From IMG/VR virus record IMGVR_UViG_3300042294_002722: a DNA stretch of 20,000 bases. One strand, given 5' to 3'. Below are positions 3-18,207 of this stretch, piece after piece. The position numbers and the translations under genes are program-made. This DNA comes from an uncultured virus (IMG/VR IMGVR_UViG_3300042294_002722) (Duplodnaviria; Heunggongvirae; Uroviricota; Caudoviricetes). The number at the start of each line of letters is the position of its first letter. Position 1 is the stretch's first letter. The notes below the pieces were generated by a model. The model searched no databases. It worked only from the letters and a program-made list of their open reading frames with translations, and was not told the DNA's origin.

Positions 3-452
3 TCCTGCACACTAGGTAACACTTCCGAGTACAGATGCTGGTGCAAATTTAAGCGAAGGTGTCTGGCTCCTAATGACCGTGGTTACATTGATTACGGTGG
101 CCGAGGCATTCGTGTCTGCGAGCGATGGCTTGGTTCCACGGGCTTCCAGAACTTCCTGGCTGACATGGGGCGTAAGCCTAGTCCCGCCTATTCGATAGAC
201 AGAATCGACGTAAACGGCGATTACTGTCCCGAAAATTGCAGATGGGCTACCCGTACTCAACAGAATAATAACACCCGCAGAAACATCGTATTGACCCATG
301 CCGGGAGGTCTATGACTATGGCGGAATGGTCGCGCGAAACGGGCATAGACTACAAAATAATACATTCTAGGGTACAGATTATGGGATGGTCAGCAGAAGA
401 TGCCTTGACTCGCCCCATACGCCAAATAAGCAAACGAGGACCGAACAGATGA
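3..452 (+). CDS. HNH (homing-type) endonuclease with C-terminal helical DNA-binding domain; 5'-truncated by window edge
   Basis: The frame of ORF 165..452 is open back to base 3 and reads ...YRCWCKFKRRC...YIDYGGRGIRVCERW...FQNFLADMGRKP..YSIDRIDVNGDYCPENCRWATRTQQNNNTRRN, the typical phage HNH pattern (YGGRGI.VC.RW / SIDRID.NG.Y.P.NCRWAT). The C-terminus TMAEWSRETGIDYKIIHSRV..GWS.EDAL is HTH-like. Confidence 0.9.
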   Translation, partial: SCTLGNTSEYRCWCKFKRRCLAPNDRGYIDYGGRGIRVCERWLGSTGFQNFLADMGRKPSPAYSIDRIDVNGDYCPENCRWATRTQQNNNTRRNIVLTHAGRSMTMAEWSRETGIDYKIIHSRVQIMGWSAEDALTRPIRQISKRGPNR

Positions 453-1453
453 TACAAGAACTGCGGCTAAAGAATTTCCAACGGCACAAAGACCTCCAGG
501 TCACATTTGGCCCTCACATTACGGCTATCGTGGGCCAGAGCGATACTGGCAAGTCAGCAATTATCCGTGCGATTCGATGGCTCGTAGAACATCGCCCGAT
601 CAGTGGTCTGCCCACCCACGGAACCGATGACACGCGAGTCGGGATCAAGACAGACAAAGGATTAGTAATTCGGTTCAAGGACAAAAAGAACTACGGATAC
701 TCGGTCAACGGTCAAAAGTATCTGGCTACGGGAACACAGCAACCAGTTCCGGTTAGCCAGTTATTAGCGATGGAGGACATTAACTTTCAGGGCCAGCATG
801 ATCCCGTGTTTCTGCTTTCTCTGACCCCGGGACAAATGGCTAAGGAGCTAAACCGGATAGTCGATCTTTCAGTCATTGATGAATCGATGGCTGAGATCAA
901 TAGTCGGGTGACGAAAACGAAGGCACAGGTCACAACATACCAAGAAGAAGAGGCTAGACTAGCCAAAGGCGTAGAAGAACTGCTCTGGGTCCAAGAGGCT
1001 GTGGACAAGCTGGCTTTGCTAGACGAACGCGCCACAAAGCTAGAATCGGTTGAGTGCCGCCATGCCGCCCTGGAAATAAAGGTTTTGCGTTTAACTGAAT
1101 CGGATGCAAAGTTACAGAAATACAGGGAAATGGAAGACTGGCTTTCTCTGTTTGTGGAGACAGTCCGACAATACCGCGAACACTGTTCTCGCCGGGATTC
1201 CCTAAAAAAGGTGGTTGACGGCATCCTGAACCGTAAGTTCCCCAGTCAGAAATTTTACGACGCAATCGAATCTCTGCTTGCCAGGGCTGAAACTGTAGCA
1301 CAAATGAAACAAAAGAGAGATCGACTAGCAGTCTTAGTAGCACAGGCAAAAAGCTGCAACTCGTCAATCGCTATCAAAGATACCGAGATATCCCAAACCC
1401 AGTCCCAGATCAAGGAGATTCCAGTATGCCCATCGTGCAACCGTCCCCTGTAG
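449..1453 (+). CDS. Rad50/SbcC-like ATPase, N-terminal half (Walker A, Q-loop, coiled coil, zinc hook)
   Basis: The ATG at 449 overlaps the HNH stop (ATGA) and has GAGGA at 436-440. Reads MIQELRLKNFQRH (SMC-family start), Walker A GQSDTGKS, Q-loop INFQGQHD and a long heptad-rich region, and ends in CPSCNRPL (CxxC hook). No signature motif or Walker B. Confidence 0.88.
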   Translation: MIQELRLKNFQRHKDLQVTFGPHITAIVGQSDTGKSAIIRAIRWLVEHRPISGLPTHGTDDTRVGIKTDKGLVIRFKDKKNYGYSVNGQKYLATGTQQPVPVSQLLAMEDINFQGQHDPVFLLSLTPGQMAKELNRIVDLSVIDESMAEINSRVTKTKAQVTTYQEEEARLAKGVEELLWVQEAVDKLALLDERATKLESVECRHAALEIKVLRLTESDAKLQKYREMEDWLSLFVETVRQYREHCSRRDSLKKVVDGILNRKFPSQKFYDAIESLLARAETVAQMKQKRDRLAVLVAQAKSCNSSIAIKDTEISQTQSQIKEIPVCPSCNRPL

Positions 1454-2343
1454 CAGTTCTTTGTTCTGACCTACACCTTCGTCATACGGTCCCCTCGGGC
1501 CGTGCCGAATCGAACTGGTACGATGTCATGTTTCCGTACCTAAAGAACCTACGAGAGGTGTCCTATCGTTACGGAATCCCGATTATCTGCGCGGGAGACG
1601 TATTCGACCGATGGAATCCCCCGGCTGAACTGGTTTCGTGGGCCATTGACCACCTACCTGAGATGTATGCGATTCCGGGGCAGCATGACTTGAATGGGCA
1701 TGACTACGAAAGGCGAATGGACGGGGCATACGGGGCACTGGTAAAAGCTGGCATTATCCATGACTTGATACCCGAGGCATGGACCGTAATCAGGGGTGGA
1801 GTAGCGGTTTGGGCCAATCCCTGGGGTCGGTATCTATTTCCCGATCACGGGCCATTGATACATAGTGAAGTTTCTTTGCAAGTGATCCACAAGTATGTCT
1901 ACACAGATTCAACTCCGAGCAAATACTACGGAGCGCCAGAAGACGCAGAGTATCGAGCGTGCCTATCAGCAAACAGCAAGTTAGTGGATTACATACTTAT
2001 CGGGGACAATCACATCCGGTGGAACACCCTGGAGGCAGGGAATCCCGGTAGCCTGATCCCCATGAAACAGGACCAGATAAACCATAAGCCTGCCTACGGC
2101 TTGCTATCTTCTTCGGGCCTTGCCGAATGGTATGAGTACGATGTACCCGCTCCTAAGTGGCAGACCCTAATGTACGCAGCGTCCCTGACTGAAAAGGTCG
2201 CGGACGATGTAATCGCGGCTCTCGGCAGCCTAGAAACTGTATCAGAGTCTTTTTCGGATCGTCTTTTCCATGCCGCCGAAAACGCCGCTTGCCTAGAACT
2301 TTCTAAAATTTTGAGGGAAGTGTGGGAGCAGACTCGGAAATAG
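1426..2343 (+). CDS. Mre11/SbcD-like metallophosphoesterase nuclease
   Basis: Phosphoesterase motifs SDLH, AGDVFD, PGQHD, IH, GDNH, followed by NPGS; lies between the two SbcC halves. Confidence 0.9.
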   Translation: MPIVQPSPVAVLCSDLHLRHTVPSGRAESNWYDVMFPYLKNLREVSYRYGIPIICAGDVFDRWNPPAELVSWAIDHLPEMYAIPGQHDLNGHDYERRMDGAYGALVKAGIIHDLIPEAWTVIRGGVAVWANPWGRYLFPDHGPLIHSEVSLQVIHKYVYTDSTPSKYYGAPEDAEYRACLSANSKLVDYILIGDNHIRWNTLEAGNPGSLIPMKQDQINHKPAYGLLSSSGLAEWYEYDVPAPKWQTLMYAASLTEKVADDVIAALGSLETVSESFSDRLFHAAENAACLELSKILREVWEQTRK

Positions 2344-2585
2344 ATCGATACTTATGTAGACACTGCCAAGAGGTCTTGTACATAGCCTCGGGCAGTGGGA
2401 ACGAGCATTTACTTGAATGCCCGTTCGGGTATAGACCAGGAATCAGTCCATGCAAACCAAGGGGAAGACGTAACTGTGGTAGCTGCAAACAAACTCGACA
2501 AACTCGTAAAGGAACTCCAATCTTTGCAGATGGCGAAAGCCCGTCTGGAGGGGGAACAGAAACAGTTGATGAAGTCGTTGAATGA
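2322..2585 (+). CDS. Possible small Cys-rich (Zn-binding) protein
   Basis: GTG start after GAGGG; six Cys including CRHC and CGSC; fills the 2344-2475 gap but overlaps the next gene by about 110 nt, so it is uncertain. Confidence 0.3.
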   Translation: MGADSEIDRYLCRHCQEVLYIASGSGNEHLLECPFGYRPGISPCKPRGRRNCGSCKQTRQTRKGTPIFADGESPSGGGTETVDEVVE

Positions 2586-2733
2586 ACTCGGCTTTGATTC
2601 CGTAGAGGATGCGTCTGAGGAACTGGATCGCTTGGACGAGTTTTTAAGACAAGAAGGGAGCCTGCTCGATGCCGACTACGAACAATTCCAGACCCAGTAC
2701 GCTGACGCGATCCAAGCTGCACAGGCTAAGTAG
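2476..2733 (+). CDS. Small coiled-coil protein, possibly the missing middle segment of the split Rad50 arm
   Basis: In frame with ORF 2395..2733; the likely GTG start at 2476 follows GGGGAAG (2461-2467). Heptad-rich: KLDKLVKELQSLQMAKARLEGEQKQLMKSL...EELDRLDEFL. Confidence 0.7.
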   Translation: MVAANKLDKLVKELQSLQMAKARLEGEQKQLMKSLNELGFDSVEDASEELDRLDEFLRQEGSLLDADYEQFQTQYADAIQAAQAK

Positions 2734-3268
2734 CGAATTATCCCTCAAGCAGAGACAACTTGAAGATACTAGGGCACAGCTTATGTATGCACAGGATCGA
2801 CAAAGATTCCAAGAAACCGCCAAAGAAGTCATTCGGCAGATAGGTGCAGAATGCCAGGAAACCGCACAGGCTCAAATAAACACCGTAGTAACGCGATGTT
2901 TGCAGGCTGTCTTTGGTCCCGGATCGTACCAGTTTCGTTTGGTATTTGAACTCAAACGGGGCCAGACAGAAGCCCGGGCTGTTTTAATCGATGCCCAGGG
3001 CAACGAACTGGACCCCGTACAAAGCGTGGGCGGGGGCATTTTGGACGTAGTGACATTCGGGCTACGCCTCGCGTGTCTTGCGTTGATGCGCCCCCGCCCG
3101 GCGCAGGTACTGATTCTGGATGAACCGTTTAGGTTCCTAAGCGAGCAGTACCGCGAAAACGTGAAGCGACTCATGGTTGAGTTGTCAGAGGAGTTGGGAA
3201 TACAGATAATCCTGGTCACGCACATCTCTGAATTCATGGACGTTGGGCATCTAATTACGGTGGTATAA
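2669..3268 (+). CDS. Rad50/SbcC-like ATPase, C-terminal half (coiled coil, signature, Walker B, H-loop)
   Basis: ATG at 2669 with GGGAG 8 nt upstream; N-terminal coiled coil, signature-like SVGGG, Walker B/D-loop VLILDEPFRFLS and H-loop IILVTH; no Walker A. Confidence 0.9.
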   Translation: MPTTNNSRPSTLTRSKLHRLSSELSLKQRQLEDTRAQLMYAQDRQRFQETAKEVIRQIGAECQETAQAQINTVVTRCLQAVFGPGSYQFRLVFELKRGQTEARAVLIDAQGNELDPVQSVGGGILDVVTFGLRLACLALMRPRPAQVLILDEPFRFLSEQYRENVKRLMVELSEELGIQIILVTHISEFMDVGHLITVV

Positions 3269-3269
3269 A

Positions 3270-3476
3270 ATGCGAGATACTGGAGCAACTACTAAATCAG
3301 AGTATGTTCTGAGGTACGGAGTGCATGAAATTGACGAAGATGTGGCAAATGCTATGTTTGTAGCCACGAATGCTGATCCAGGGTCCAATGAGAAGATAGA
3401 GATCATGGCAAAGCGATTTGAATTGGGCCAGCCCATTTTTCATCCGGACGACAAGACTTACGGAAACCAAGCATGA
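3270..3476 (+). CDS. Small hypothetical protein with T-x-A-x-PGS-x-EKI...R...G-x-P-x-F/W-HP-x-D motif
   Basis: Tightly packed ORF (1 nt after the previous stop; ATGA overlap with the next gene); contains ATNADPGSNEKIEIMAKRFELGQPIFHPDD. Confidence 0.75.
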   Translation: MRDTGATTKSEYVLRYGVHEIDEDVANAMFVATNADPGSNEKIEIMAKRFELGQPIFHPDDKTYGNQA

Positions 3477-4231
3477 AATTCCTTTGCCTGACTCCTCTGT
3501 ATAACCATCATCAACGGCTTACTCAGAACGTGTACCAAGCACTCGTTGACCAGACCCACGGTGACTGGGTTTGGGTGCTAGGAGATGACAGGCCGTGGGA
3601 ATCGCAATTACCGGGACTTCTTGAACCAGACCCCCGAGTTGTAATAAAGCGATTCCACACCAGATGCGAAAGCATGGGCGAGAAGTACACGGCTATGGTC
3701 GCACACGCAGAAGAACAAGGCATCCAGTGGGATGCGATTGCCATCATGGACGGCGATGACATGTTCATGCCAAAGCACCTTGAGAAACACGCGGAGGCAC
3801 TTTCCTGGGGCCTCTACAGCCGTCCTAGCGTAGTGCTTACAGCGATGACCGGGATTGTGCAAGTGGAGTCCTCGACAGGCCGGTTCTGGAGTTCTGTAGC
3901 GTTTACTCGTAAAGGGTTAGAAAGAGTGGGCGGTTTTGGGGACTCTAAGTTTGTCGGATTTGACCAGGAGATGCTGAAAAAATTCAAAATGCTCTGCGGG
4001 GAAACCGACCACGAAACACCGACTTACGTTTATCGGTGGGCTGATACGGCGAGCGACCATGCTTCCGGACACAGTTCTGGATTTGCCTGCACTGAGTGGT
4101 GGGGCAAAGTTCCTGTGATGCCAGGAGAAGGGCTTCTGTATCCTAGGTACGACGATGCTACGGACATTTTTATCATTCCTGGGGCTGAGGCAGTCTATGC
4201 AAAACGAAAAGAATCTGGGCTTTCGTATTAG
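3473..4231 (+). CDS. Glycosyltransferase, GT-A fold (GT2-like)
   Basis: N-terminal LCLTPLYN strand, LVDQTHGDWVWVLGDD, DxD-type IAIMDGDDMF, GLERVGGF and GFDQEM, matching the GT2 motif order. Confidence 0.85.
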   Translation: MKFLCLTPLYNHHQRLTQNVYQALVDQTHGDWVWVLGDDRPWESQLPGLLEPDPRVVIKRFHTRCESMGEKYTAMVAHAEEQGIQWDAIAIMDGDDMFMPKHLEKHAEALSWGLYSRPSVVLTAMTGIVQVESSTGRFWSSVAFTRKGLERVGGFGDSKFVGFDQEMLKKFKMLCGETDHETPTYVYRWADTASDHASGHSSGFACTEWWGKVPVMPGEGLLYPRYDDATDIFIIPGAEAVYAKRKESGLSY

Positions 4232-4910
4232 TAAATCGGAATACATAGATGTAAATGCTATCTATGAACTGCATCACGGTAATCTAGGGGATCACTGGAC
4301 TTCATACAGCCTTATGGCCCTTCTGGGGTTACGCTTTGACCTTCCAAAGGGGTTCACCTACAAGCTGGGTACTTTGAACGGGGGGATGGATTACACAGGC
4401 AGATTGCAAGAGATCGATGCCCTTTTCTCAGAATTTGAGTACCGGCCCCAGCTAGTTCGGGAACAGGGAACAGTCAAAGTCGATCCCTGGTTGAACTGGT
4501 CTACCCCGCCGCTGATGGTTGATAAGAGATTCCGGTGGTCCCTGCAAAAATGCGAGCCGTATTTCTGCTACCAGTTTGACGGTCTATCGGCTGCTGAGAG
4601 CAAGAACCCGCCCCCTAGTTTGATTTTTGCAGTCAAGCAATCCCTAAAATCCAAAGGGTATCGTTCCGTTAGGCTAGGGTCGCATGTTACTTTGCAGGAG
4701 TCTGCCGAGTTGCTTTCCCGGTGCAGTCTTTTTGTAGGGTGCGATAGCGGGTTCAGCCACATCGCCCACAGTGTTGGATGCCCGGTTTACATGTACGAGG
4801 GCAGTCTGCCGGTGTACACGGCACACCGGCTAAAGCAGAACGACATCTTTAAGAGTCTGCCGGAGTTTGAAATGAAACTCCAGCATTGGCATTCCTTTTT
4901 GACGATTTAG
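4197..4910 (+). CDS. Glycosyltransferase, GT-B fold (GT9/heptosyltransferase-like)
   Basis: Likely start at ATG 4197 (GAGG at 4187-4190). N-terminal GNLGD and C-terminal TLQESAELLSRCSLFVGCDSGFSHIAHSVGCPV match the GT9 DSG..H.A motif. Confidence 0.82.
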   Translation: MQNEKNLGFRISKSEYIDVNAIYELHHGNLGDHWTSYSLMALLGLRFDLPKGFTYKLGTLNGGMDYTGRLQEIDALFSEFEYRPQLVREQGTVKVDPWLNWSTPPLMVDKRFRWSLQKCEPYFCYQFDGLSAAESKNPPPSLIFAVKQSLKSKGYRSVRLGSHVTLQESAELLSRCSLFVGCDSGFSHIAHSVGCPVYMYEGSLPVYTAHRLKQNDIFKSLPEFEMKLQHWHSFLTI

Positions 4911-4912
4911 GT

Positions 4913-6943
4913 CTACTTGCAAAGACCTTTTTCGATCTTCTTTTCTGCGGCACGGATTGCTCGTAATACCGCCAGCTTGACCACGGGTCGCACATAGAGG
5001 TGGCCCATGTTTCGTTTGTCGGCTTCTTCCTTGAGCCAGTCTAGGATCGTCTCTAACTCTTCGCGGCACTTAGCCGGTCCCCAATCATCCATCACGGCTG
5101 CGCGTGCGTTACAGGAGCAACCAGGGGCCGCCTCGATGCCTATAAGCTTTAGGGTGGCCTTTAGTTCTTGCCCGCAACCGCAAAGTTTTCCTTCGGGATC
5201 GAGCATCCCGGGAAACAGTTTTACGGGGTCTTTGGGCTTGTCACCCGGCAGCCGTGACAGCACCGTCATCCCGTACTGGTTTTTCGCGTGTTCAGCGATG
5301 AACCATTCAGGGTTCTGGTTGATAAATTGTGATATCCCCCAGAACATGCCCTTGCCGCCGCCCTCCCCGTCTACCCCGAAGATCGCGGTATCGTGAATCA
5401 TTATGCGTGAAGACACTTTGGGTGCATACCGAGTCAGTTCTTCCAGAACCCGTTCGCCGCTGTGGACTGTATCCAGGAACAAGAAATCTGTTTCTGGTAT
5501 TTCATCGACCAGCTTAGAATGGTCAAACGGAGCGATACTAAACTCCAGCGGTCGCCCGGAGTGCGTTTTTACCATGTCCTGGAGGATACCGATCAAGCTA
5601 TCCTGTTCTTGTTGGAAACTGACCAAGACGGCAGGCTTGTCGCATCGTTTGTCACACTTGGACTTGTCGCAATTACCTCGGCAAGGGATTTTGCGTCCCA
5701 GTGCCCCTAACAACAGGGCAGTGGACTCTCGCCGTCCGGTGATGTCTACTGCATGGTGCATGTCAATGAGCCACTTCATAAACAGCCCGGCATGCTCGTT
5801 CAGATCGCGAGGGGCCAGGGCTACGAAGTTCACTACATCATTGAGGGTTTCGTAATTCGTGGGCAACGGGAAACCGAGATTGGATGTCGCTGCCGCCGCT
5901 GCCGGTGCGGGACCGTTTGCCCTTGGCCTAGGCTGAAAAGGCTGGAACGCTACGGGATCGCGGGCAATGATGTCAAAGGTCGCTTGTGGGAACTTGACTT
6001 CGTCTACGAAGTGCTTACGCACCTCTTCGGTATCCCAATCCACATCTTTGTACCCGATCAGATAGTTTCTGATCTTGTTTTCCATTGTCAGGGGGTACGG
6101 AACTCCTCCCGGACGACCAAAACGATGCACCCATTTGATAAACGGCAGGCAGTAAGTTGTCCTGCCGTGTTTGCGATACAGGGCGTGATGCAGGATTTCC
6201 TCGCCGCCGAATCCCCGGAAATCGCGGTTAAAGGGAATCCAGTGTTCCTTGCTGGTTACAAATAACCCGAACCCTTGACCGGGAACCTCGAACGGCGGTT
6301 CGTCGTTGGTCATACCCATGACTTTGTAGCCGCGATCCACCAACTGTTGTTCATGACCGGGCCAAGGAATCTCGGTAGGAGTCCATTCGCCCTTGCTTTC
6401 TACATGCAATTTGCGTAAATGCACACGGTTGTCAAAGTTTTTGCAGACGATAGCCGTCCCATCTGGATGCCGCCAAGCCGTGGCCCAAGTCCCGTTCATC
6501 TGGTCTTGAAAGCCGATCTCAAAGTGAGTGGAGACAAAGGAAAGCCCGTCATAAAGCAGCGGGCCGGTAAACAGATTCTTCTGCATCTCGGGAGTAGCTT
6601 CCCGTAGATGCTTCTTGAGCAAGTGAATGCCGTTTGCCTGAACGAAAACGTGAGGGTCCGTGACCATCACAAAATCGCCCTGGGCCTCCTCAATGATCTT
6701 GTTACGGGGTTGCGATGTGCCGCCGATCTCTGTGTACGGGATATATCGGATATTTTCAATGTGAGAAATGCTTTGGATAAAGTCCCGAGTGGCCTGACCT
6801 TCTGGCGAGTCAGGATTGTTGTCCACGATGATGAACTCGCAGTCCCGGGTATCCTGGTACATGCGATGTGCTTGGACGGTGAAATAAACACCGTTGAAGT
6901 CATTGTAAGTGGCGCAACCAATGGTTAGAAAAGGCTTGCTCAT
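4913..6943 (-). CDS. Fusion: GT2-like glycosyltransferase, class I SAM methyltransferase-like domain (Methyltransf_24-like) and C-terminal Cys-containing helical domain
   Basis: GT2 motifs LTIGCATYND, EFIIVDNN, SQPRN, GDFVMVTDPHV and FRGFGGEE; a Pro/Ala linker; then DLNEH...TDFLFLDTVHS...IMIHDT...GMTVLSR (MTase-like); the C-terminus is CGCGQELK...GCSCNARAAVMDDWG..KC. Confidence 0.85.
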   Translation of the reverse strand: MSKPFLTIGCATYNDFNGVYFTVQAHRMYQDTRDCEFIIVDNNPDSPEGQATRDFIQSISHIENIRYIPYTEIGGTSQPRNKIIEEAQGDFVMVTDPHVFVQANGIHLLKKHLREATPEMQKNLFTGPLLYDGLSFVSTHFEIGFQDQMNGTWATAWRHPDGTAIVCKNFDNRVHLRKLHVESKGEWTPTEIPWPGHEQQLVDRGYKVMGMTNDEPPFEVPGQGFGLFVTSKEHWIPFNRDFRGFGGEEILHHALYRKHGRTTYCLPFIKWVHRFGRPGGVPYPLTMENKIRNYLIGYKDVDWDTEEVRKHFVDEVKFPQATFDIIARDPVAFQPFQPRPRANGPAPAAAAATSNLGFPLPTNYETLNDVVNFVALAPRDLNEHAGLFMKWLIDMHHAVDITGRRESTALLLGALGRKIPCRGNCDKSKCDKRCDKPAVLVSFQQEQDSLIGILQDMVKTHSGRPLEFSIAPFDHSKLVDEIPETDFLFLDTVHSGERVLEELTRYAPKVSSRIMIHDTAIFGVDGEGGGKGMFWGISQFINQNPEWFIAEHAKNQYGMTVLSRLPGDKPKDPVKLFPGMLDPEGKLCGCGQELKATLKLIGIEAAPGCSCNARAAVMDDWGPAKCREELETILDWLKEEADKRNMGHLYVRPVVKLAVLRAIRAAEKKIEKGLCK

Positions 6944-7026: not shown

Positions 7027-10000
7027 TCATTCTGGGGCCATTGTTGGGCCTGCCGTGGTCGCTGGTGCTTCCGTAGTTGTTGTGGTTGTCGGGGCTGCCG
7101 TGGTTGTCGGGGCTGCCGTGGTTGTTGGGGCTGCCGTGGTTGTTGGGGCTGCCGTGGTTGTTGGGGCTGCCGTGGTTGTTGGGGCTGCCGTGGTTGTTGG
7201 GGCTGCCGTGGTTGTTGGGGAGCCTAATTCTTCTGGGGGGACATTAGTAGTCACAGGAGGAATTTGAGTAGTCGTGCCCCCACAGAAAGGTGGATTACCA
7301 GATAAGCAAGTAACGCCGGTGTTCCAACTGCACGAGACTTGATTGTTTGAGTAGCTTATACAGGTTTCCAGCGCCACGCCATTTGTGCAACTATAAGACA
7401 CAGGAAACACATTTGCATTAACACAGCAACAAGCACCTAGTAGTATAGTGGTTGTTGTGGTGCTAGTGGTAGTGAATCCGCAAGCGGCTAATGGGTTTGG
7501 TCCGCAGGTAGCGTTGGCTGTCCAAGACCCTCCGATTTCGGTACAGAATGACTGAGAGTAGCCCTCTCCGCATCCTCCTCCCCAAGGACTAGGCGGTACG
7601 CAGCAACGGCCTAAAGGAGTTCCTGTTGTGGTTGTTGTTGGACACGGGTTAGGAGAACATACACTGCCCGCACCCTGGAATGAACCGCCAGAATTGACGC
7701 ATGAGTCTCGGGAACCGACAGTACAGGTTCCTCCCGGCCAGCAGCAGGCTCCAGGACCAATGGTCGTGGTGCTTGTGGTAGTCCCCGTGCCAGTGGTTGT
7801 ACTGGTCGAAGTGCGAGTAGGTACAATCTCTCCGCACTGAAAATCGATCATATCACAATCAGACAGGCTTTGTGCTAATGGTGCGCCCGGACAAGGACAA
7901 GTGGTAGGGCAGTTATCAATAAATTTATTCCAACCACCATAACCGTTGCCCTTATAAGTGCATTTTCGTTGACAGCTTGTGGTGTTACAACATGCGCACT
8001 CTGCATAACCTGATCCGCAACTTGTTTGAATGATCTGGCATACATTAGTCGGAGGGTCAGACGGTACGGAGCATCGACAATTTGCAAAACTAGAAACTAG
8101 ACTATTATCGCATCCCGGGGGGCCAAGTTTACAGCAGTCGCCGTGTCCTTCACCTAAATACACATAGCATGGTATCTCTTGCCATATATACTCAGTACCC
8201 GGGAAGTTAAATACTGAATAAAAAATGCAAGTACCGGAACAGCTACTACAAGGAGGACGCGGGCTAGTAGTAGGAGGCAAACCACAAGGAACCGAATAAG
8301 TATCCCCGCAACTTGCATTAGGTGGAAATGTCCCGGCGCAGAGATTGCCACCGACCATGACGCAATCGGTGGGGCTGGGCGTGCCACCAGGCCCCCAGGC
8401 ATAAGGAGGCAACGTACAGTGGCAACTATTAAGAGCATTCTCACACCTCTCCGTCATCTGCCACTGGTTAAGTGACGATGAAATCGGCACGCTTACATAT
8501 GTCCATGTACATTGTCCGCAAGGCGCGGATGTAGTAGTTGTGCCTGTTCCAGTGGTAGATGTAGAACTGGTACAAATGCACCATTTTCGCCCGTCAAAAC
8601 AAGTCGGTATCTCTGGTTCCGGAGTGGTCGCTGGACATTCTAACTCCGTACCTGCGCCTCCTGGAACGCACTCAGTTCTCACACACATCCCTGCTACATC
8701 AGGACAACGTACAGGCGGCCTGCAACCGCAAGGCGCGATTGTCGTAGTGGTTGTCGTAAAAGTAGTAGTAGGGGCCGGGGTGGTTTCAGTTAAATCTTCT
8801 TCGTACATCTCGCGCCATGCTGGCGCAAAATTGCACAGGTTACAGTCGTAGCCCGGAACACAAGGGGTTTCCCACTTCCATAACCTAGAGCCAGATTCGG
8901 CATAGTCCAGTCTGCCATGCCTGCGCCCCCAGCTAGCAAATCGTTCTCCCTCTACCCACAATACGCCATATCCCCAGTCTGGGTCATTCGGTGCGTCATC
9001 TATCAACCAGTTTCGCATACTGATCCACCAAGAGGTGTCCATTGGCAGCATACGAGGAGGGGGCAACTTTGGCCGAGTTCCTGGAGGGCATGACTGGCAT
9101 ATTGACCAGTTAGGTGCGTACCACGCTAAGGGATTGCGGTCAGGCGGGTCAGAAACAGTGTTCAAACTGTCCTGAAATCCTGGTAGTTGCAACCCTTGAA
9201 TCTCCCATCCATCCTCCTCAGCATATAAAAACGCATTACTCAGTGGTCTTGGTCCCGGATTCAGATCGAATCGTAGAAAGTCCGCAGACTCTAGGGCGTT
9301 TTGCCAGTTTGTTTGAAGATTGTCCCAGTTGAATGCCCTGTAGACCGCTTTACCTACTGGGTAATCACCGGGCAAAGGCAAATCAGAGGAACATGGGTCG
9401 TACACACAGCTAGTCTGATGGTAAACCGCTGTCGCATTTTCGCTAGGCAAAACAGGAGGTTTTGCACCGATGGGGTACAACGGTCTGTAGCCCGGGTCAC
9501 ATTCTTTGCAAACCTGCCACGGTCCTAGGCCGCCTTGCAGCCTAGCAGCGCGAAATGTATTTGCAGGAATACTTGCTGTAGGGGCAAACTTATTAACTTG
9601 GAAACAGGGATTCTGGCGATTGCTAGGCGACTCTGTCGTCGTTGTCGTACTGGTCGTAGTAACCATGAAAATACAACGACTCTCAATGTACGCATTCAAA
9701 GTGAAGCAGGGATCGCCCTGCCCGTAGCAAGTGCAAGGAGATGAGCATCCATCTGCTCCTGGGTTCTCTAACTGATAAGTCAACCCGGTAGAAGGAGCAG
9801 GGGGCCATGCACCTGAGGTCGTAGTTACGGCTACGCATTTAAGTTTGCAGGTAGGTTTTGCGGATAGACAAGGGGCAGCAGTTGTGCTGGTTGCCGTAGT
9901 AGTGGTAGTTGTTCCAGTTGTGGTAGGGCCGATTGTCGTAGGTGGGGGTGCGGCGGTCGTGGTTGTTGTACTTGTAGTAGTTCTGTTCTCGCACCCGCCT

Positions 10001-10548
10001 ACCGGCCCTTCCCAAGCAAGGCCGGAGTTCGCAGTCCATAAACAGTATCCCTGGCAAGGAAGATTCACAGGACTTGGGGTAGTGCTGGTAGTTGTGCCTG
10101 TAGTGGTTGTGGATTTTAATCCGAGCCAAATCCTTGATTGCTCAATATCGCCTTTGTCTACTACCCAAGTCCCGTTCTTATGTTTTGTGATTTTTACCAG
10201 ATGGTTGACTGTCCACCCGGTTTCGTTGTAGACTATGGCTCTGGTAGGGATTCCCACGCCATCTAACAACTGAATGATACGCTTGCTTTCGCGGTCATAC
10301 TTAAACAGACAGCACTTTGCAGCCCCGAAGGAGTCGCTACTAGAGTCGTACCCATCTCTAAGATACCCCGCCGGAATACCTGTCTCACAAGGCGGTAAAG
10401 CGAAGTAGGTATCTGCTGCACTAAACAAATGCCCTGCTTTCGGCGCAATCATAGACGCAGGCGGCGCGCTTTCAGCGGCCCCTAAAACGCGCCCTAAGCG
10501 CTTGCGGTCGGCATCAGATAGAAAATAACCTTTGTGGTTGCCTAGCAT
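7027..10548 (-). CDS. Large Cys-rich, Thr-rich mucin-like protein; probable tail fibre/adhesin
   Basis: 1173 aa, in the position after tape measure and tail-tip genes; about 80 Cys (manual count) in modules separated by about 10 poly-Thr/Pro linkers; three G[A/R]CC modules; C-terminal (PTTTAA)7. Confidence 0.75.
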   Translation of the reverse strand: MLGNHKGYFLSDADRKRLGRVLGAAESAPPASMIAPKAGHLFSAADTYFALPPCETGIPAGYLRDGYDSSSDSFGAAKCCLFKYDRESKRIIQLLDGVGIPTRAIVYNETGWTVNHLVKITKHKNGTWVVDKGDIEQSRIWLGLKSTTTTGTTTSTTPSPVNLPCQGYCLWTANSGLAWEGPVGGCENRTTTSTTTTTAAPPPTTIGPTTTGTTTTTTATSTTAAPCLSAKPTCKLKCVAVTTTSGAWPPAPSTGLTYQLENPGADGCSSPCTCYGQGDPCFTLNAYIESRCIFMVTTTSTTTTTESPSNRQNPCFQVNKFAPTASIPANTFRAARLQGGLGPWQVCKECDPGYRPLYPIGAKPPVLPSENATAVYHQTSCVYDPCSSDLPLPGDYPVGKAVYRAFNWDNLQTNWQNALESADFLRFDLNPGPRPLSNAFLYAEEDGWEIQGLQLPGFQDSLNTVSDPPDRNPLAWYAPNWSICQSCPPGTRPKLPPPRMLPMDTSWWISMRNWLIDDAPNDPDWGYGVLWVEGERFASWGRRHGRLDYAESGSRLWKWETPCVPGYDCNLCNFAPAWREMYEEDLTETTPAPTTTFTTTTTTIAPCGCRPPVRCPDVAGMCVRTECVPGGAGTELECPATTPEPEIPTCFDGRKWCICTSSTSTTGTGTTTTSAPCGQCTWTYVSVPISSSLNQWQMTERCENALNSCHCTLPPYAWGPGGTPSPTDCVMVGGNLCAGTFPPNASCGDTYSVPCGLPPTTSPRPPCSSCSGTCIFYSVFNFPGTEYIWQEIPCYVYLGEGHGDCCKLGPPGCDNSLVSSFANCRCSVPSDPPTNVCQIIQTSCGSGYAECACCNTTSCQRKCTYKGNGYGGWNKFIDNCPTTCPCPGAPLAQSLSDCDMIDFQCGEIVPTRTSTSTTTGTGTTTSTTTIGPGACCWPGGTCTVGSRDSCVNSGGSFQGAGSVCSPNPCPTTTTTGTPLGRCCVPPSPWGGGCGEGYSQSFCTEIGGSWTANATCGPNPLAACGFTTTSTTTTTILLGACCCVNANVFPVSYSCTNGVALETCISYSNNQVSCSWNTGVTCLSGNPPFCGGTTTQIPPVTTNVPPEELGSPTTTAAPTTTAAPTTTAAPTTTAAPTTTAAPTTTAAPTTTAAPTTTTTTEAPATTAGPTMAPE
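7082..7220. repeat. 18-bp tandem repeat (7 full copies plus partial flanks) encoding PTTTAA
   Basis: Unit GGGGCTGCCGTGGTTGT[C/T] at 7091, 7109, 7127, 7145, 7163, 7181 and 7199; six copies are identical and one differs by a single base. Confidence 0.97.
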
Positions 10549-10985
10549 GGGAAAGCGGTCATGTGCAGAATAGCGGTTGCTTTGGTGGCTTTAACAGTAA
10601 TAACCCCAGGAAACTCCCCGAACAACATCCTACCGGGCCTGAGGATTGCATGCAACTTTCCATCGAGGTAGACTTCGATAACATTGCCCTTTTGCTGTTC
10701 GGCCATCAGGGGATCGCTACCTAGGATTTCCAGTTCTTTGTGCCCCAGGAAAATTTCAAAACTTCCTTCGGGCAGTAGCAGTTTCTGTTCCTTGGCGGGA
10801 TTTACTCGGATATCAGACTGGATCGCGGAGTCAACCGATGGGCGTAGTCGGTCGTAGGCCCATCTAGAATTGACCATATTCCCCGTACCCCACTCCAAAT
10901 AAGTCCCCTGGAAAACTGCTGTAAATCGGTCTTCTTCTTTAGGTTCACCTACCGTCTTGACTATTTCTTCGTTCGACTTTAGCAT
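10542..10985 (-). CDS. Hypothetical tail-region protein (beta-rich)
   Basis: 147-aa ORF overlapping both neighbours in the structural operon; no recognisable motif. Confidence 0.7.
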   Translation of the reverse strand: MLKSNEEIVKTVGEPKEEDRFTAVFQGTYLEWGTGNMVNSRWAYDRLRPSVDSAIQSDIRVNPAKEQKLLLPEGSFEIFLGHKELEILGSDPLMAEQQKGNVIEVYLDGKLHAILRPGRMLFGEFPGVITVKATKATAILHMTAFPC

Positions 10986-11920
10986 TAGATTAGCACCGTT
11001 GGGATTCCTAAGAGTAAGAGATTTGCTTGCTTTGCAATCTGAACTGTTTGAATAAACGTGTTACCAGGAATCGGAACTCCTAGTATACCTACGTCATCAG
11101 GGGTAGCAGGTCTGCCGATATAATCCAAAAACACAGGAGGCATGTTCTCGCCGTTATCGTCTTTGGGGATTTCGTAAGACCCCGGCAGAAACGGAATAGC
11201 ACCGTTTTTTAGCCTAGCCAGACCGTATGACGGTATCTTCTTATCAAAGGTATCCAGATTGCACTCAAACGTGTATTGTATCTTGTAGTAGTAAAAACAT
11301 GTACCGTACAGAACTCTCTCAAACCGGCAGTCTGTAAATCGGACACACCTTGCCGGAAACCCCCACAAAGGCGCATCGTTGACTCTGTTAATCAGTAAGT
11401 TGAAGGTAGACGCTGGTAAGACAGCACTGTTGAAACTGATACTGATGGACGGATAGCTTACCTTTTCTTCGACCTCCGGTCCAAGAATAGGCTCCAGATT
11501 CGAGTGCCGAAGTGCCCTTCCAAACCGGTCAGTCTTCATTTCCCGGGAGACATGCACAAAATCCCCAGACAGTGTGTACGGTTCTAATAGCGGGTTTTCG
11601 ATCTGTGTCGAGTTACACCGCTGCATGGGCCTAGTGGTGTACTCATTCGTGATTTGCCAAGACTGCACTACGTCCCCGTCGCTGTATCCCGGGTGAGGTG
11701 CGATAGCTAACCGTGGGGTACAGAATGCCCAAGGATCGTAGTCGTTGTCTATGCTGTATACAGAACCCGTAGGCAGCACTGTATTGACAGCTTGTAGCAC
11801 TGTCTCTGGGCCGTCTAGCGGACTGTCCGTATTGAATATCCAAGTGCATTCGTAAGTTCGATGCCCCTCTTCATCACGGGACATTGATACGTTTTTTAGA
11901 CCTCTCAAAACGGCTGTCAT
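10985..11920 (-). CDS. Putative tail tip/distal tail protein
   Basis: 311 aa, ATGA-coupled to the tape measure stop and beta-strand-rich; function inferred from synteny only. Confidence 0.65.
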   Translation of the reverse strand: MTAVLRGLKNVSMSRDEEGHRTYECTWIFNTDSPLDGPETVLQAVNTVLPTGSVYSIDNDYDPWAFCTPRLAIAPHPGYSDGDVVQSWQITNEYTTRPMQRCNSTQIENPLLEPYTLSGDFVHVSREMKTDRFGRALRHSNLEPILGPEVEEKVSYPSISISFNSAVLPASTFNLLINRVNDAPLWGFPARCVRFTDCRFERVLYGTCFYYYKIQYTFECNLDTFDKKIPSYGLARLKNGAIPFLPGSYEIPKDDNGENMPPVFLDYIGRPATPDDVGILGVPIPGNTFIQTVQIAKQANLLLLGIPTVLI

Positions 11921-14900: not shown

Positions 14901-15387
14901 TAGTTTTTGTGGCAGCAGCGGTTGCAGCGGCTCTGGTTTTTGCGGCAGCGACTCTGGCTGCCGATTCAGTCTTTAGCGAAGCAACGGTAGCGGCGGCTTT
15001 CTGTCTATTGCCCGCTGCGTCTGCGGCAGCTATAGTCGCCTTAGCAGCAGCATTTGCAGCGGCCTCTATTTTCTTTGCTTCGTTTTTCCCCTTCGCCAAT
15101 AGCATGGCAGCTTGAGTTGATGCACGGGCAATCTTAGCAGCCGCATTTGCGGCTTGTGTTGTTGCCCCGCCGCGAGAAAACAACCCACGAAGAGATGCTA
15201 TGGCCCCAGCTATGCTACCGAAAAAACCTGTCTTAGGGACAGTAGAGGCTGCGGATAGCCTAGAAATTCTCTGAAGAGTCTTTTCTAGCTTCTCAGCTTT
15301 TCTGATGGACTCATCCATCATTTTGCTGTAGTGCTTATTATCACCCTGTAGCTTCACATACAGGGGAGGTAGCTGCCTAGTTGACAT
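11917..15387 (-). CDS. Tail tape measure protein
   Basis: 1156 aa after the frameshifted chaperone; conserved TMP block FAIQSPYMFTDL...MAYGVSAEQ...LGDIAGG....LAYAMSQI...GKLQGNELRQLTEQGFNPL; hydrophobic central segments; Ala-rich repeats. Confidence 0.93.
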   Translation of the reverse strand: MSTRQLPPLYVKLQGDNKHYSKMMDESIRKAEKLEKTLQRISRLSAASTVPKTGFFGSIAGAIASLRGLFSRGGATTQAANAAAKIARASTQAAMLLAKGKNEAKKIEAAANAAAKATIAAADAAGNRQKAAATVASLKTESAARVAAAKTRAAATAAATKTKAAAKAAAIKTEAAATAAATKTEAAAKAAATKTKAAAVVAATKTKAAAAVAATQAKTAASVAATQTKNAARVAAIQTESAARVSATQARQAATQMKTAASLAATKIKTILTAGLITARTNATQAKAAASVAATQQKAAASVAAKRTVAAATAAAKATVAAARAAATIQTAATTAAARARSIQQRTIRDNQRHQNQQLINQDRNRRAEQAHQQRLRIANEIHQRRMASRFYTSKRPTINFNSSGGGGGGFRQGGFGQGGFGQGLTERADIYMHMNALKNLARTANSLLEIGTSFRENSVAIEVFVGSAEKADAVMKDIRDFAIQSPYMFTDLAEEARNMMAYGVSAEQTMDLMKSLGDIAGGNSRRFGLLAYAMSQIVSLGKLQGNELRQLTEQGFNPLKTIAERTLKPMQTLEERMSELFEAKEKGLITSKHVIDALRIETSEGGHFAGTMNRMSNELGGLMNRIRETFQTSILLKIYTILEEDLKNLARRTLEYLNRLEEWIEKNPKLVKQIAETAKNAFLLLAAFNALGLAVAVIAWNLNKVSTLFSIFKMLTSPLYSVLTSLVGVFMTLGSVLSSIVTLNVMGLISSIGGLLQIAAAFGAVGMGVALVRDYIKGAGGLSGALRQIQEDLNRLSLFSKGFFANFQENFQILTDWIRKNWKELSQFLGETMNSMLKALLHNIGVLAEAMVKLIVASFHWLKANLPGIIKEITAAVAGGFGATQERGMAMAATGVNAMGGPQGTLASMAASIPMWIAEQGLERDEYNRQRNEKVLEIARKEGLDTTPRSRGRAEASRILDQMEAKGEWSYVPRSRMFMPPGSNVPGAKEGVNLGQEAANIGASVLDRLKSGLEGMGNAADRLKALGIEMPALNLTIPEGKPAELPPGMPIPPAFKDFDFSGLEGGPGAKGKGRGRGVEDLTAFTYESGSYRAKMAEYASRVKAEGAGANPQLSAQLTANNILLKILGALTGGGATPPDANNTISPANLNAVGAP
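14368..15165 (-). repeat. Ala/Thr/Lys-rich low-complexity region with 11-aa (33-bp) period in the TMP N-terminus
   Basis: TKTKAAAKAAA / IKTEAAATAAA / TKTEAAAKAAA / TKTKAAAVVAA / TKTKAAAAVAA / TQAKTAASVAA / TQTKNAARVAA / IQTESAARVSA. Confidence 0.9.
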
Positions 15388-16080: not shown

Positions 16081-16091
16081 CCCTCTGCGAA

Positions 16092-16118: not shown

Positions 16119-16149
16119 GTAAACGTGGAAAACAAACCTACTAGATGGA

Positions 16150-16611: not shown

Positions 16612-16617
16612 GGAAAA

Positions 16618-17775: not shown

Positions 17776-17783
17776 GGGCCACC

Positions 17784-18203: not shown

Positions 18204-18207
18204 GGCG

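What the first reader, a model, noticed from the sequence alone, without database searches (positions are those of the whole stretch)
449..3268. Rad50/SbcC split at the zinc hook, with Mre11/SbcD and a coiled-coil gene nested between the halves
Seen: the N-half stops four residues after CPSC; the C-half has its own RBS and carries the signature, Walker B and H-loop; Mre11 lies between them in a different frame, so this is not a simple frameshift or sequencing error. Established: Rad50, SbcC and T4 gp46 are single chains folding back at the hook. Inference: the ATPase is assembled in trans. The ascending coil (roughly 180 aa) is much longer than the C-half coil (roughly 70 aa), and the 85-aa coiled-coil protein (2476-2733) could supply the remainder, giving a three-piece Rad50.
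Basis: partly seen in the sequence, partly recalled or inferred. Interest (0 to 1): 0.72.

Follow-up and report, generated by a model that had tools for sequence, protein, structure and literature searches.

The report
Phage Rad50 naturally split at hook
This phage encodes its Rad50-type DNA-repair ATPase as separate pieces that break exactly at the zinc hook, next to an Mre11 nuclease and a small conserved helical protein, and the same layout recurs in many other phage sequences.

Summary
Four + strand genes each have a Shine-Dalgarno-like site: N-half (449-1453; Walker A, Q-loop, ends CPSC+4 aa), Mre11/SbcD-like nuclease (1426-2343), an 85-aa helical protein "S" (2476-2733), and C-half (2669-3268; signature, Walker B, H-loop).

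It is not decay. All 58 database homologues of the N-half stop 4-37 residues after a CxxC. A profile finds 508 relatives in IMG/VR. Of 63 fetched loci with enough downstream DNA, 58 carry M, S and C, and 59 loci show the order N-M-S-C. Stand-alone C-halves number 1,478 cluster representatives at E<=1e-30.

A single-chain phage relative aligns with the N-half up to its mid-chain hook, CPTCKQPL. Bacillus phages and a Microcystis phage carry the same split, with Mre11 placed elsewhere or fused.

S is a new conserved family. AlphaFold2 predicts an extended helix-kink-helix. Its gene is collinear with, and usually overlaps, the C-half gene. It is therefore plausibly the distal descending strand. 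However, N-half length (292-405 aa) does not covary with S+C, and binding could not be tested because the complex predictor was unavailable.

Verdict: a new variant of Mre11-Rad50, apparently undescribed.

The parts
3..452 (+). HNH endonuclease gene (5' end runs off the window). Its stop overlaps the N-half start in an ATGA. This is context, not shown to be part of the module.
   Evidence: PHROG phrog_3377 HNH endonuclease, E 2.2e-53; sequence
449..1453 (+). Rad50/SbcC-like N-half, 334 aa: ABC ATPase N-lobe, then a ~183-aa helix, then a terminal zinc-hook motif
   Evidence: Pfam AAA_23 1.5e-12, AAA_15 and SMC_N. PHROG 16465 'exonuclease' 7.9e-22. AF2 model pLDDT 85.5. Foldseek top hits are Rad50 (3auy_A 2.6e-7). 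58 homologues have the same architecture.
533..556 (+). Walker A / P-loop, GQSDTGKS (residues 29-36)
   Evidence: G29, G34 and K35 invariant in 54 sequences; S36 nearly invariant
1427..1438 (+). CPSC zinc-hook motif (residues 327-330), four residues before the stop. The Mre11 ATG (1426-1428) overlaps its first codon.
   Evidence: C327 and C330 invariant. CPxC in 50 of 54. Aligns with the mid-chain CPTCKQPL of a 695-aa single-chain relative.
1426..2343 (+). Mre11/SbcD-like metallophosphoesterase, 305 aa
   Evidence: Pfam Metallophos 7.1e-6. With the family profile, all 16 PDB hits are Mre11 or SbcD (best 1ii7_A, 3.9e-6). Metal-ligand motif residues D15, H17, G57, D58, G85, H87, D88, H155, G193, N195 and H196 are invariant.
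2476..2733 (+). S: 85-aa conserved helical protein (GTG start). Candidate third strand of the Rad50 arm.
   Evidence: The iterated HMM finds exactly one ORF in each of 68 loci; motif alignment. AF2 pLDDT 95.3, helices 2-37, 43-74 and 76-84. The model aligns end to end with single long helices. No Pfam, PHROG or PDB match above threshold.
2669..3268 (+). Rad50/SbcC-like C-half, 199 aa: a ~55-60-aa N-terminal helix followed by the ABC ATPase C-lobe
   Evidence: PHROG 15167 'ATPase' matched full length, 4.3e-22. Profile top PDB hits are Rad50 C-terminal fragments (3qkr_B 5.4e-8, 1ii8_B). 5,930 relatives, of which the 150 best have a median length of 192 aa.
3023..3037 (+). Signature motif SVGGG (residues 119-123)
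   Evidence: GGG conserved in 52-54 of 54
3107..3124 (+). Walker B, VLILDE (residues 147-152)
   Evidence: D151 and E152 present in 54 of 54
3221..3223 (+). H-loop His185
   Evidence: His in 44 of 54, Asp in 7
2669..2733 (+). 65-nt overlap in which the end of S and the start of the C-half are read in two frames
   Evidence: Overlap or a gap of <=20 nt between S and C in 50 of 59 loci.

Best explanation
This is a four-gene phage module that encodes an Mre11-Rad50-type DNA-end-processing machine. Its Rad50 subunit is made from separate polypeptides.

The N-half supplies Walker A and the Q-loop, a ~27-nm ascending helix, and a CxxC zinc hook on its free C-terminus. The C-half supplies a short descending helix plus the signature, Walker B, D-loop and H-loop.

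The two halves must associate in trans, through the head-proximal antiparallel coiled coil, to form each ATP site. Engineered two-chain Rad50 heads do the same. Two such heads, with an Mre11-like dimer, would then form the ATP-driven nuclease, and the CxxC ends of two N-halves would share a zinc ion.

The 85-aa protein S is a conserved fourth subunit. Most likely (about even odds) it lies antiparallel along the distal part of the N-half helix, acting as the hook-proximal piece of the descending strand.

What is shown: gene structure, motif conservation, wide conservation of the split and of the gene order, and fold similarity. What is inferred: physical assembly, zinc binding, nuclease activity, and the position of S.
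For: (1) Split at the hook. CPSC lies four residues before the stop. 58 of 58 homologues, plus four annotated phage homologues, end 4-37 residues after CxxC. C327 and C330 are invariant, and CPxC occurs in 50 of 54.

(2) Position of the hook. The N-half profile aligns with residues 72-397 of a 695-aa single-chain phage Rad50-like protein (prob 99%, E 2.6e-18) and ends on that protein's mid-chain CPTCKQPL. The C-half profile aligns with residues 601-676.

(3) Complementary catalytic motifs are conserved on the two chains. Walker A and the Q-loop are invariant. Walker B D/E is present in 54 of 54, and GGG in 52-54 of 54.

(4) Synteny. 508 IMG/VR stretches encode relatives. Of the 80 fetched loci, 73 have a complete N-half ORF. 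Of the 63 with at least 3 kb downstream, 62 have M, 61 have S, 58 have C, and 58 have all three. The order N-M-S-C is seen in 59 loci.

(5) Family assignment. The best Foldseek hits of the N-half are Rad50. The best PDB sequence hits of the C-half profile are Rad50 C-fragments that were crystallised as separate chains (3qkr_B, 1ii8_B). All 16 PDB hits of the M profile are Mre11 or SbcD.

(6) The N-half model is one extended helix with no fold-back. 204-212 contiguous residues align with myosin rods at rmsd 10-11 A, and residues 127-263 align with a single 137-aa helix at 5.7 A. It therefore needs partner strands.

(7) S. It forms a conserved family with one ORF per locus in 68 loci. AF2 pLDDT is 95.3. 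The model aligns over residues 1-85 with single 79-81-residue helices, so it is extended rather than a hairpin. The S gene overlaps or abuts the C-half gene in 50 of 59 loci, against 19 of 59 for M. The collinear order N...S...C is also seen in a Microcystis phage (hhalign prob 69%) and in Bacillus phages (prob 38%).
Against: No interaction was computed or measured, because the complex predictor was unavailable.

N-half length ranges from 292 to 405 aa, while S (73-99 aa) and C (186-204 aa) are nearly constant. Spearman rho for N against S+C is -0.02, p 0.87. Many loci with a 376-386-aa N-half have no room for an extra gene. S plus the C-half helix therefore cannot pair with the whole ascending helix in long variants. 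In the window itself about 40 residues stay unpaired.

S shows no similarity to the descending coil of the single-chain relative (prob 2.8%) or to any solved structure.

The H-loop His is replaced in 10 of 54 C-halves. Mre11 motif III reads GQHD, not GNHD.

In 5 of 63 loci no C-half was found within the DNA held.

The VIA Z-scores of the head (10-13) do not separate Rad50 from SMC, RecF or RecN.
Confidence: 0.75

Rival explanations
1. The split Rad50 is real, but S is not a strand of the arm. Instead it is an accessory or regulatory subunit, for example an adaptor on Mre11, a DNA- or host-factor-binding piece, or a clamp on the hook dimer.
For: S+C length does not track N-half length. S has no detectable similarity to the descending coil of the single-chain relative. 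S has a conserved non-heptad loop motif and a conserved Gly in helix 1. In 9 of 59 loci S is separated from the C-half gene by more than 20 nt.
Against: The S model is an extended 85-residue helix-kink-helix, as a coiled-coil strand would be. The N-half helix has no other encoded partner for its distal part. The order N...S...C is collinear with a single-chain Rad50 in all 59 loci and in distant phages. M keeps its own conserved C-terminal helical region with L266 and F276 nearly invariant, so S is unlikely to be a detached Rad50-binding domain of Mre11.
Confidence: 0.3
2. The long N-half helices of the two protomers pair with each other as a parallel two-stranded rod tied at the tip by the shared zinc site. 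The C-half helix, and perhaps S, cover only the base.
For: A homodimeric arm tolerates any length. That would explain the free variation of N-half length (292-405 aa, in blocks of ~40-45 aa) against constant S and C. The CxxC sits on a free C-terminus, where two parallel helices could present four cysteines. This explanation does not exclude the best one.
Against: There is no direct evidence. Canonical Rad50 arms are intramolecular antiparallel coils (established knowledge).
Confidence: 0.2
3. The two halves do not work together. The N-half is a stand-alone SMC-like protein, and the C-half belongs to another system.
For: In 5 of 63 loci no C-half was found in the DNA held. In Microbacterium phage Magritte the best N-like and C-like matches lie ~93 kb apart.
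Against: Neither half has a complete ATP site. The two genes co-occur in one operon-like block in 58 of 63 loci. The same pairing appears in distant Bacillus and Microcystis phages.
Confidence: 0.04
4. The split is a broken gene, a frameshift or an assembly artefact.
For: None was found beyond the unusual layout itself.
Against: The stop sits at the same place in 58 of 58 homologues. Each piece has its own start and SD-like site. A whole Mre11 gene lies between the pieces. Catalytic residues are conserved. There are thousands of stand-alone C-halves.
Confidence: 0.01

Closest known systems
Canonical Mre11-Rad50 / SbcCD (P. furiosus and M. jannaschii Rad50, E. coli SbcCD, T4 gp46/gp47)
   Same: ABC ATPase head motifs, a CPxC hook motif, a long helical arm and an adjacent Mre11/SbcD-type nuclease. 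The best structural and sequence hits are Rad50 and Mre11/SbcD.
   Different: Known Rad50, SbcC and gp46 are single chains that fold back at the hook (established knowledge). Here the chain ends 4 residues after CxxC. The C-lobe is a separate 199-aa protein, and a conserved 85-aa protein is added. Mre11 motif III is GQHD.
Single-chain Rad50-like protein of Escherichia phage EP_H11 (WDQ71901.1, 695 aa)
   Same: The N-half profile aligns with residues 72-397 and ends on the hook CPTCKQPL. The C-half profile aligns with residues 601-676.
   Different: It is one polypeptide with a ~165-190-aa descending coil after the hook. No S-like segment is detectable.
Engineered two-chain Rad50 catalytic domains (PDB 1F2U/1F2T, 1II8, 3QKR)
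   Same: Separate N- and C-terminal fragments form a head. The natural C-half aligns with fragment chains 3qkr_B (179 aa) and 1ii8_B (174 aa) nearly end to end. The N-half aligns with 1f2u, 1ii8_A and 3qkr_A.
   Different: Those are laboratory truncations without the distal arm or hook. Here the split is natural, and the N-half keeps the whole ascending helix and the hook.
Mre11/Rad50 fusion proteins (Mimivirus R555; Bacillus phage 0305phi8-36 gp8), Yoshida et al. 2011, PMC3175470 (passages read)
   Same: 0305phi8-36 gp8 (769 aa) and P0071 (767 aa) fuse Mre11 to the same kind of N-half.
   Different: That paper noted that the Bacillus phage fusion lacks one P-loop NTPase segment. Here the missing segment is found as gp5, three genes downstream, and gp8 ends 17 residues after CPTC. 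It is therefore a fusion on top of the split.
Fractured genes / genes-in-pieces created by homing endonucleases (Dassa et al. 2009, PMC2677866, passages read; Friedrich et al. 2007, seen only in a reference list, content recalled)
   Same: These are phage DNA-metabolism genes split into two ORFs whose products must reassemble. Dassa et al. describe an SbcD-like gene split by a Vsr-like endonuclease ORF. HNH genes lie beside the module here and in 0305phi8-36, and an AP2-domain gene (which I take, from recall, to be a possible homing endonuclease) lies between the N-half and the small protein in vB_BboS-125.
   Different: In the window no endonuclease gene lies between the pieces, and no intein-sized extension is present. 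The split is ancient and fixed across a large family rather than a sporadic insertion.

Membership tests
Rad50/SbcC (SMC-like ABC ATPase of the Mre11-Rad50 complex) | N-terminal lobe with Walker A and Q-loop | tested here: met
   GQSDTGKS at residues 29-36. G29, G34, K35 and Q116 are invariant in 54 sequences. Pfam AAA_23 1.5e-12.
Rad50/SbcC (SMC-like ABC ATPase of the Mre11-Rad50 complex) | C-terminal lobe with signature motif, Walker B, D-loop and H-loop | tested here: met
   All are present, but on a separate 199-aa chain. GGG in 52-54 of 54, D151/E152 in 54 of 54, His185 in 44 of 54. Profile hits Rad50 C-fragments at 5.4e-8.
Rad50/SbcC (SMC-like ABC ATPase of the Mre11-Rad50 complex) | Both lobes in one polypeptide joined by an intramolecular antiparallel coiled coil | tested here: not met
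   The chain ends 4 residues after CxxC, and 58 of 58 homologues do likewise. The search for longer forms found only an Mre11-N-half fusion that also ends at the hook.
Rad50/SbcC (SMC-like ABC ATPase of the Mre11-Rad50 complex) | CxxC zinc hook at the apex of the arm | tested here: met
   The motif is met: C327 and C330 are invariant, CPxC occurs in 50 of 54, and it aligns with the mid-chain hook of a single-chain relative. Zinc binding and dimerisation cannot be tested with these tools.
Rad50/SbcC (SMC-like ABC ATPase of the Mre11-Rad50 complex) | Head fold closest to Rad50 rather than to other SMC-like ATPases | tested here: inconclusive
   Foldseek ranks Rad50 first (3auy_A 2.6e-7). VIA Z-scores of 10-13 are tied among SMC, RecF, Rad50 and RecN.
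Rad50/SbcC (SMC-like ABC ATPase of the Mre11-Rad50 complex) | Encoded next to, and working with, an Mre11/SbcD nuclease | tested here: met
   Adjacency is met in 62 of 63 loci. A physical complex and ATP-dependent nuclease activity cannot be tested here.
Mre11/SbcD nuclease | Calcineurin-like phosphoesterase motifs with metal ligands (DxH, GDxxD, GNHD/E, H, GxxH) | tested here: met
   D15, H17, G57, D58, G85, H87, D88, H155, G193, N195 and H196 are invariant in 44 sequences. Motif III is GQHD, a variant. All 16 PDB hits are Mre11 or SbcD.
Mre11/SbcD nuclease | Capping domain and C-terminal Rad50-binding helices | tested here: inconclusive
   PDB matches cover only profile positions 9-94. A C-terminal region with nearly invariant L266 and F276 exists, but it was not modelled.
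Fractured gene / genes-in-pieces made by a homing endonuclease | Endonuclease ORF between the two pieces, with or without split inteins | tested here: not met
   In the window the intervening genes are Mre11 and S, and the HNH gene lies upstream at 3-452. The N-half has only 4 residues after the hook, so no intein is present. An AP2-domain gene does lie between the pieces in vB_BboS-125.
Any named family for the small protein S | Match above threshold to Pfam, PHROGs, PDB sequences or PDB folds | tested here: not met
   Best Pfam hits are BAR_3 (4.4e-4, 20.4 bits against a cut-off of 31.7) and CT398_CC (0.015). PHROG best is 0.0084. PDB sequence hits are coiled-coil noise only. Foldseek best E is 8. 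ESM Atlas neighbours are unnamed viral clusters of 80-87 aa.

The most novel reading that the evidence does not exclude
A large, so far undescribed phage lineage builds each Rad50 arm from three polypeptides: the N-half as the ascending strand with the hook, S as the distal descending strand, and the C-half as the proximal descending strand with the C-lobe. The zinc hook then sits on a free C-terminus. Covalent continuity through the hook, and along the descending strand, would therefore be dispensable for Mre11-Rad50 function. The arm or ring could open by strand dissociation, and arm length could evolve on one strand only.
Probability: 0.4. Interest if true: 0.78.

Novelty: new variant of a known kind. 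Interest (0 to 1): 0.66.

Why it matters
Models of Rad50, SbcC and SMC proteins treat the arm as one chain folded at the hook or hinge. How signals travel along the arm, and whether the ring must be closed, are still debated.

A natural, widespread Rad50 cut exactly at the hook, with a separate small helical subunit, is a ready-made dissection of that arm. It would let one test which covalent links are needed for ATP-driven nuclease action, zinc-mediated tethering and DNA entrapment.

It also corrects annotation. Thousands of ~190-aa phage 'ATPases', ~340-aa 'exonucleases' and ~82-aa 'hypothetical proteins' belong to one Mre11-Rad50-type machine. The 'incomplete' Mre11/Rad50 fusion reported for phage 0305phi8-36 is completed by gp5.

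Tried and rejected
Complex prediction of N-half + C-half + S.

Fused forms of S. A profile search among proteins of 175-2000 aa found none. This is weak evidence. Among the 150 best C-half relatives only 2 exceed 250 aa. The four long ones I inspected have low-complexity inserts or extensions rather than a recognisable S.

S against solved structures. Sequence search gave only coiled-coil noise, the best being keratin at E 0.0025, with a Rad50 coil fragment (6zff_A) at E 0.23. Foldseek found nothing. S against 0305phi8-36 gp7 and gp6 showed no similarity.

Idea that the N-half helix folds back on itself, or that S is a hairpin. I rejected it for the models, because both align end to end with single long helices.

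Idea that S is the detached Rad50-binding domain of Mre11. I judged it unlikely. M keeps a conserved C-terminal region. S is coupled to the C-half gene more often than to M (50 against 19 of 59). In the Bacillus phages S' sits beside the C-half and away from Mre11.

Idea that coil lengths match (N-half arm = S + C-half helix). It fits only the shortest N-halves (292-302 aa), and there is no covariation.

Scan of species-representative genomes. A1 gave only 6 loci, all metagenome-assembled genomes, so the family looks mainly viral. That scan used a single peptide pattern.

Literature. Eight full-text searches and passages of seven papers turned up no description of a Rad50 or SbcC split at the hook. 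Subscription journals and supplements were not searched.

Earlier notes of this scan: nothing found.

Full report
**What is in the window**

On the + strand lie four tightly packed genes.

- **N-half**, 449-1453, 334 aa.
- **M, the Mre11-like gene**, 1426-2343, 305 aa.
- **S, a small helical protein**, GTG 2476 to 2733, 85 aa.
- **C-half**, 2669-3268, 199 aa.

Each start has a Shine-Dalgarno-like motif 8-10 nt upstream: GAGGA 436-440, AAGGAG 1412-1417, AAGGGGA 2459-2465 and GAAGGGAG 2653-2660 (read).

The N-half carries Walker A (GQSDTGKS, residues 29-36) and ends ...CPSCNRPL. The M start codon overlaps the first Cys codon of that CPSC. The C-half carries SVGGG (119-123), VLILDE (147-152) and His185. 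The last 65 nt of S and the first 65 nt of the C-half are the same DNA read in two frames.

Pfam places the N-half in AAA_23/AAA_15/SMC_N, M in Metallophos, and the C-half in the C-terminal parts of AAA_21/SMC_N. PHROGs gives a 211-position 'ATPase' family (phrog_15167) that the C-half matches end to end at 4.3e-22. That was the first sign that stand-alone C-halves are a family.

The window belongs to a 42.7-kb viral record (CheckV estimate 53% complete). It also carries an HNH endonuclease, a tape-measure gene and a connector gene.

**The split is conserved, not decay**

A search of 5.8 billion proteins with the N-half gave 58 hits of 295-481 aa. Most cover the whole query. All 58 have a CxxC 4-37 residues before their C-terminus, mostly as ...CPxC[GK][KR]PL-stop.

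A search restricted to longer proteins gave one hit. It is a 767-aa Metallophos + AAA_23 fusion that itself ends 16 residues after CPTC.

A profile of N-halves found 508 relatives in IMG/VR, of which 80 loci were fetched. My ORF/HMM analysis of those loci gave these counts:

| Measure | Count |
|---|---|
| Loci with a complete N-half ORF | 73 of 80 |
| Of those, loci with at least 3 kb downstream | 63 |
| ...with M | 62 of 63 |
| ...with S | 61 of 63 |
| ...with C-half | 58 of 63 |
| ...with all three | 58 of 63 |
| Loci showing the order N-M-S-C | 59 |

The 5 incomplete loci are L072, L077, L079, L085 and L086.

The C-half profile, run against 1.84 billion cluster representatives, found 5,930 proteins at E<=1e-3 and 1,478 at E<=1e-30. 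Of the best 150, 148 are 250 aa or shorter, with a median of 192 aa.

Catalytic residues are conserved on both chains:

- G29, G34, K35 and Q116 are invariant in the N-half.
- Walker B D/E is present in 54 of 54 C-halves, GGG in 52-54 of 54, and the H-loop His in 44 of 54.
- C327 and C330 are invariant, and CPxC occurs in 50 of 54.

**The break is at the apex**

Escherichia phage EP_H11 encodes a 695-aa single-chain Rad50-like protein. The N-half profile aligns with its residues 72-397 (prob 99%, E 2.6e-18). The alignment ends on its mid-chain CPTCKQPL. The C-half profile aligns with residues 601-676. The split family therefore stops where a single-chain relative turns round.

**The same split occurs in distant phages, with Mre11 placed differently**

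| Phage | Gene layout (aa) |
|---|---|
| Microcystis phage Mvi-JY20 | 332 / 319 / 94 / 205, same order as the window; N-half ends CSQCNR + 12 |
| Bacillus prophage phBC6A51 | N-half BC1852 (518, ends CPLC + 10), 100-aa ORF, 77-aa ORF, C-half BC1855 (211), 125-aa ORF, SbcD BC1857 |
| Bacillus phage vB_BboS-125 | N-half gp32 (471, ends CPLC + 9), AP2-domain gene, 78-aa gp34, C-half gp35 |
| Bacillus phage 0305phi8-36 | gp8 = Mre11 fused to an N-half (769, ends CPTC + 17); C-half is gp5, three genes downstream |

Yoshida et al. [quoted passage not shown] The missing segment is gp5. 'Mre11 nested between the halves' is thus a feature of the window's clade, not of the split as such.

**Family assignment**

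- AF2 of the N-half with 54 sequences gives pLDDT 85.5 and pTM 0.39.
- Foldseek ranks Rad50 structures first (3auy_A 2.6e-7, then 9a9j_A, 3av0_B, 1ii8_A and 1f2u). SMC, RecN, RecF and SbcC follow.
- VIA-align gives Z 10-13 over the N-lobe for SMC, RecF and Rad50 alike, so fold alone does not pick Rad50.
- The C-half profile's best PDB sequence hits are the P. furiosus Rad50 C-terminal fragments 3qkr_B (5.4e-8) and 1ii8_B. Those chains were crystallised together with separate N-terminal fragments.
- That such engineered halves form a working head is established knowledge, which I recall rather than tested here.
- All 16 PDB hits of the M profile are Mre11 or SbcD.
- M keeps invariant D15, H17, G57, D58, G85, H87, D88, H155, G193, N195 and H196. 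Motif III reads GQHD.

**The arm**

The N-half model is helical over 140-177, 179-260 and 267-322, with a break at 261-266. It aligns over 204-212 contiguous residues with myosin rods (rmsd 10-11 A). Residues 127-263 align with a single 137-residue helix (rmsd 5.7 A). The model is therefore one extended helix of about 27 nm, not a fold-back, and it lacks a partner strand. The C-half offers only about 55-60 residues of helix ahead of its lobe.

**The small protein S**

phmmer with the window's S found 24 ORFs. An iterated HMM found 68, exactly one in each of 68 loci, out of 7,846 ORFs from 88 sources. Lengths are 73-99 aa.

The family shows a conserved Gly in helix 1, a loop motif of the form [FY]-G-x-x-[ST]-x-E-E-A, and a C-terminal F-E-x-x-W/Y region.

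AF2 gives pLDDT 95.3, with helices 2-37, 43-74 and 76-84. The model aligns over residues 1-85 with single 79-81-residue helices from vimentin, rootletin, the reovirus sigma1 tail and tropomyosin, at rmsd 6-9 A. It is therefore an extended, kinked rod rather than a hairpin.

No Pfam, PHROG, PDB or Foldseek match reaches significance. ESM Atlas neighbours are unnamed viral clusters of 80-87 aa.

By hhalign, the Mvi-JY20 94-aa protein is probably a homologue (prob 69%, 82 columns). BC1854 is possibly one (prob 38%, loop region). 0305phi8-36 gp7 and gp6 are not detectably related.

The S gene overlaps, or lies within 20 nt of, the C-half gene in 50 of 59 loci. For the M gene the figure is 19 of 59.

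**How it most likely works**

*Shown:* neither chain has a full ATP site, the two are co-inherited, and the break is at the hook.

*Inferred:*
- The N-half and C-half pair through the head-proximal antiparallel coil and form the head in trans.
- Two heads, with an Mre11-like dimer, form the nuclease.
- Two terminal CxxC motifs share a zinc ion.
- S, at about even odds, lies antiparallel on the distal N-half helix as the hook-proximal part of the descending strand. This fits its extended shape, its collinear position (N...S...C) and its coupling to the C-half gene.

*Against a simple three-strand fit:*
- N-half length runs from 292 to 405 aa (sd 34.7), in blocks of about 40-45 aa within the helix.
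- S (sd 4.3) and the C-half (sd 5.3) are nearly constant. Spearman rho for N against S+C is -0.02, p 0.87.
- Many 376-386-aa variants leave no room for another gene.
- S + C-half helix (about 140 aa) matches the arm only in the shortest variants. It is about 40 aa short in the window.

The unpaired stretch could pair between the two N-halves. A parallel homodimeric rod would explain why length is free to vary. S shows no similarity to the descending coil of the single-chain relative.

**Origin**

HNH genes sit next to the module in the window (3-452) and in 0305phi8-36 (gp9). In vB_BboS-125 an AP2-domain gene sits between the N-half and the small protein; I take it, from recall, to be a possible homing endonuclease. 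Dassa et al. 2009 (PMC2677866, passages) describe phage 'fractured genes', including an SbcD-like gene split by an endonuclease ORF. An endonuclease-driven fission is a reasonable origin, but it is only an inference. There is no intein-sized extension here.

**Novelty**

Eight full-text searches and the passages read found Mre11-Rad50 fusions and two-gene systems in viruses, but no Rad50 or SbcC split at the hook. Subscription journals and supplements were not covered. Public annotations call the pieces 'exonuclease SbcC', 'chromosome segregation ATPase' or 'hypothetical protein'. I class it as a new variant of a known kind.

Noticed in passing
window 3-452 (+): An HNH endonuclease gene (phrog_3377, E 2.2e-53) ends in an ATGA overlap with the N-half start. 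HNH genes also adjoin the split module in 0305phi8-36 (gp9/gp10), and an AP2-domain gene adjoins it in vB_BboS-125 (gp33). This may hint at how the gene was split.
   Followed up: partly
window 2669-2733 (+): A 65-nt dual-coding overlap: the end of S and the start of the C-half are read in two frames. In related loci the overlaps range from 1 to 86 nt.
   Followed up: partly
L001 (Bacillus phage 0305phi8-36), gp8 3133-5442 (-) and gp5 1406-2116 (-): The published 'Mre11/Rad50 fusion lacking one P-loop segment' is an Mre11-N-half fusion that stops 17 residues after CPTC. Its missing C-lobe is gp5, three genes downstream, with gp7 (92 aa) and gp6 (238 aa) between them.
   Followed up: yes
window 3473-4231 (+), 4155-4910 (+), 4913-6943 (-): Three glycosyltransferase-like genes lie just downstream: GT2 (3.8e-4, below the Pfam cut-off), GT9 (2.6e-7), and GT2 (2.3e-6) with a weak rhamnosyl O-methyltransferase/CmcI-like region (3.4e-4, below the cut-off). 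None has a PHROG match.
   Followed up: no
window 7027-19905 (-): A structural module lies on the opposite strand: a tape-measure protein (11917-15387), a head-tail connector (16618-17007), and large ORFs of 1173 and 409 aa without PHROG matches.
   Followed up: no
A2 alignment, N-half residues ~215-266 of the window protein: N-half length classes (~292-302, ~334-356 and ~374-405 aa) differ by blocks of about 40-45 residues. The blocks are bounded by recurring helix-break motifs of the type V-P-D/N-[IL]-[ST]-x-L.
   Followed up: partly
L002 (prophage phBC6A51) 2768-3070 and 3969-4346; L003 4056-4412: The Bacillus-phage versions have much longer N-halves (471-518 aa) and extra small ORFs around the C-half (100 aa and 125 aa; 118 aa). 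These ORFs could be further arm pieces.
   Followed up: no
Microbacterium phage Magritte (OR553905.1), genes 2 and 155: The best C-half-like and N-half-like matches lie about 93 kb apart in this 133-kb genome. It is unclear whether they are partners.
   Followed up: no
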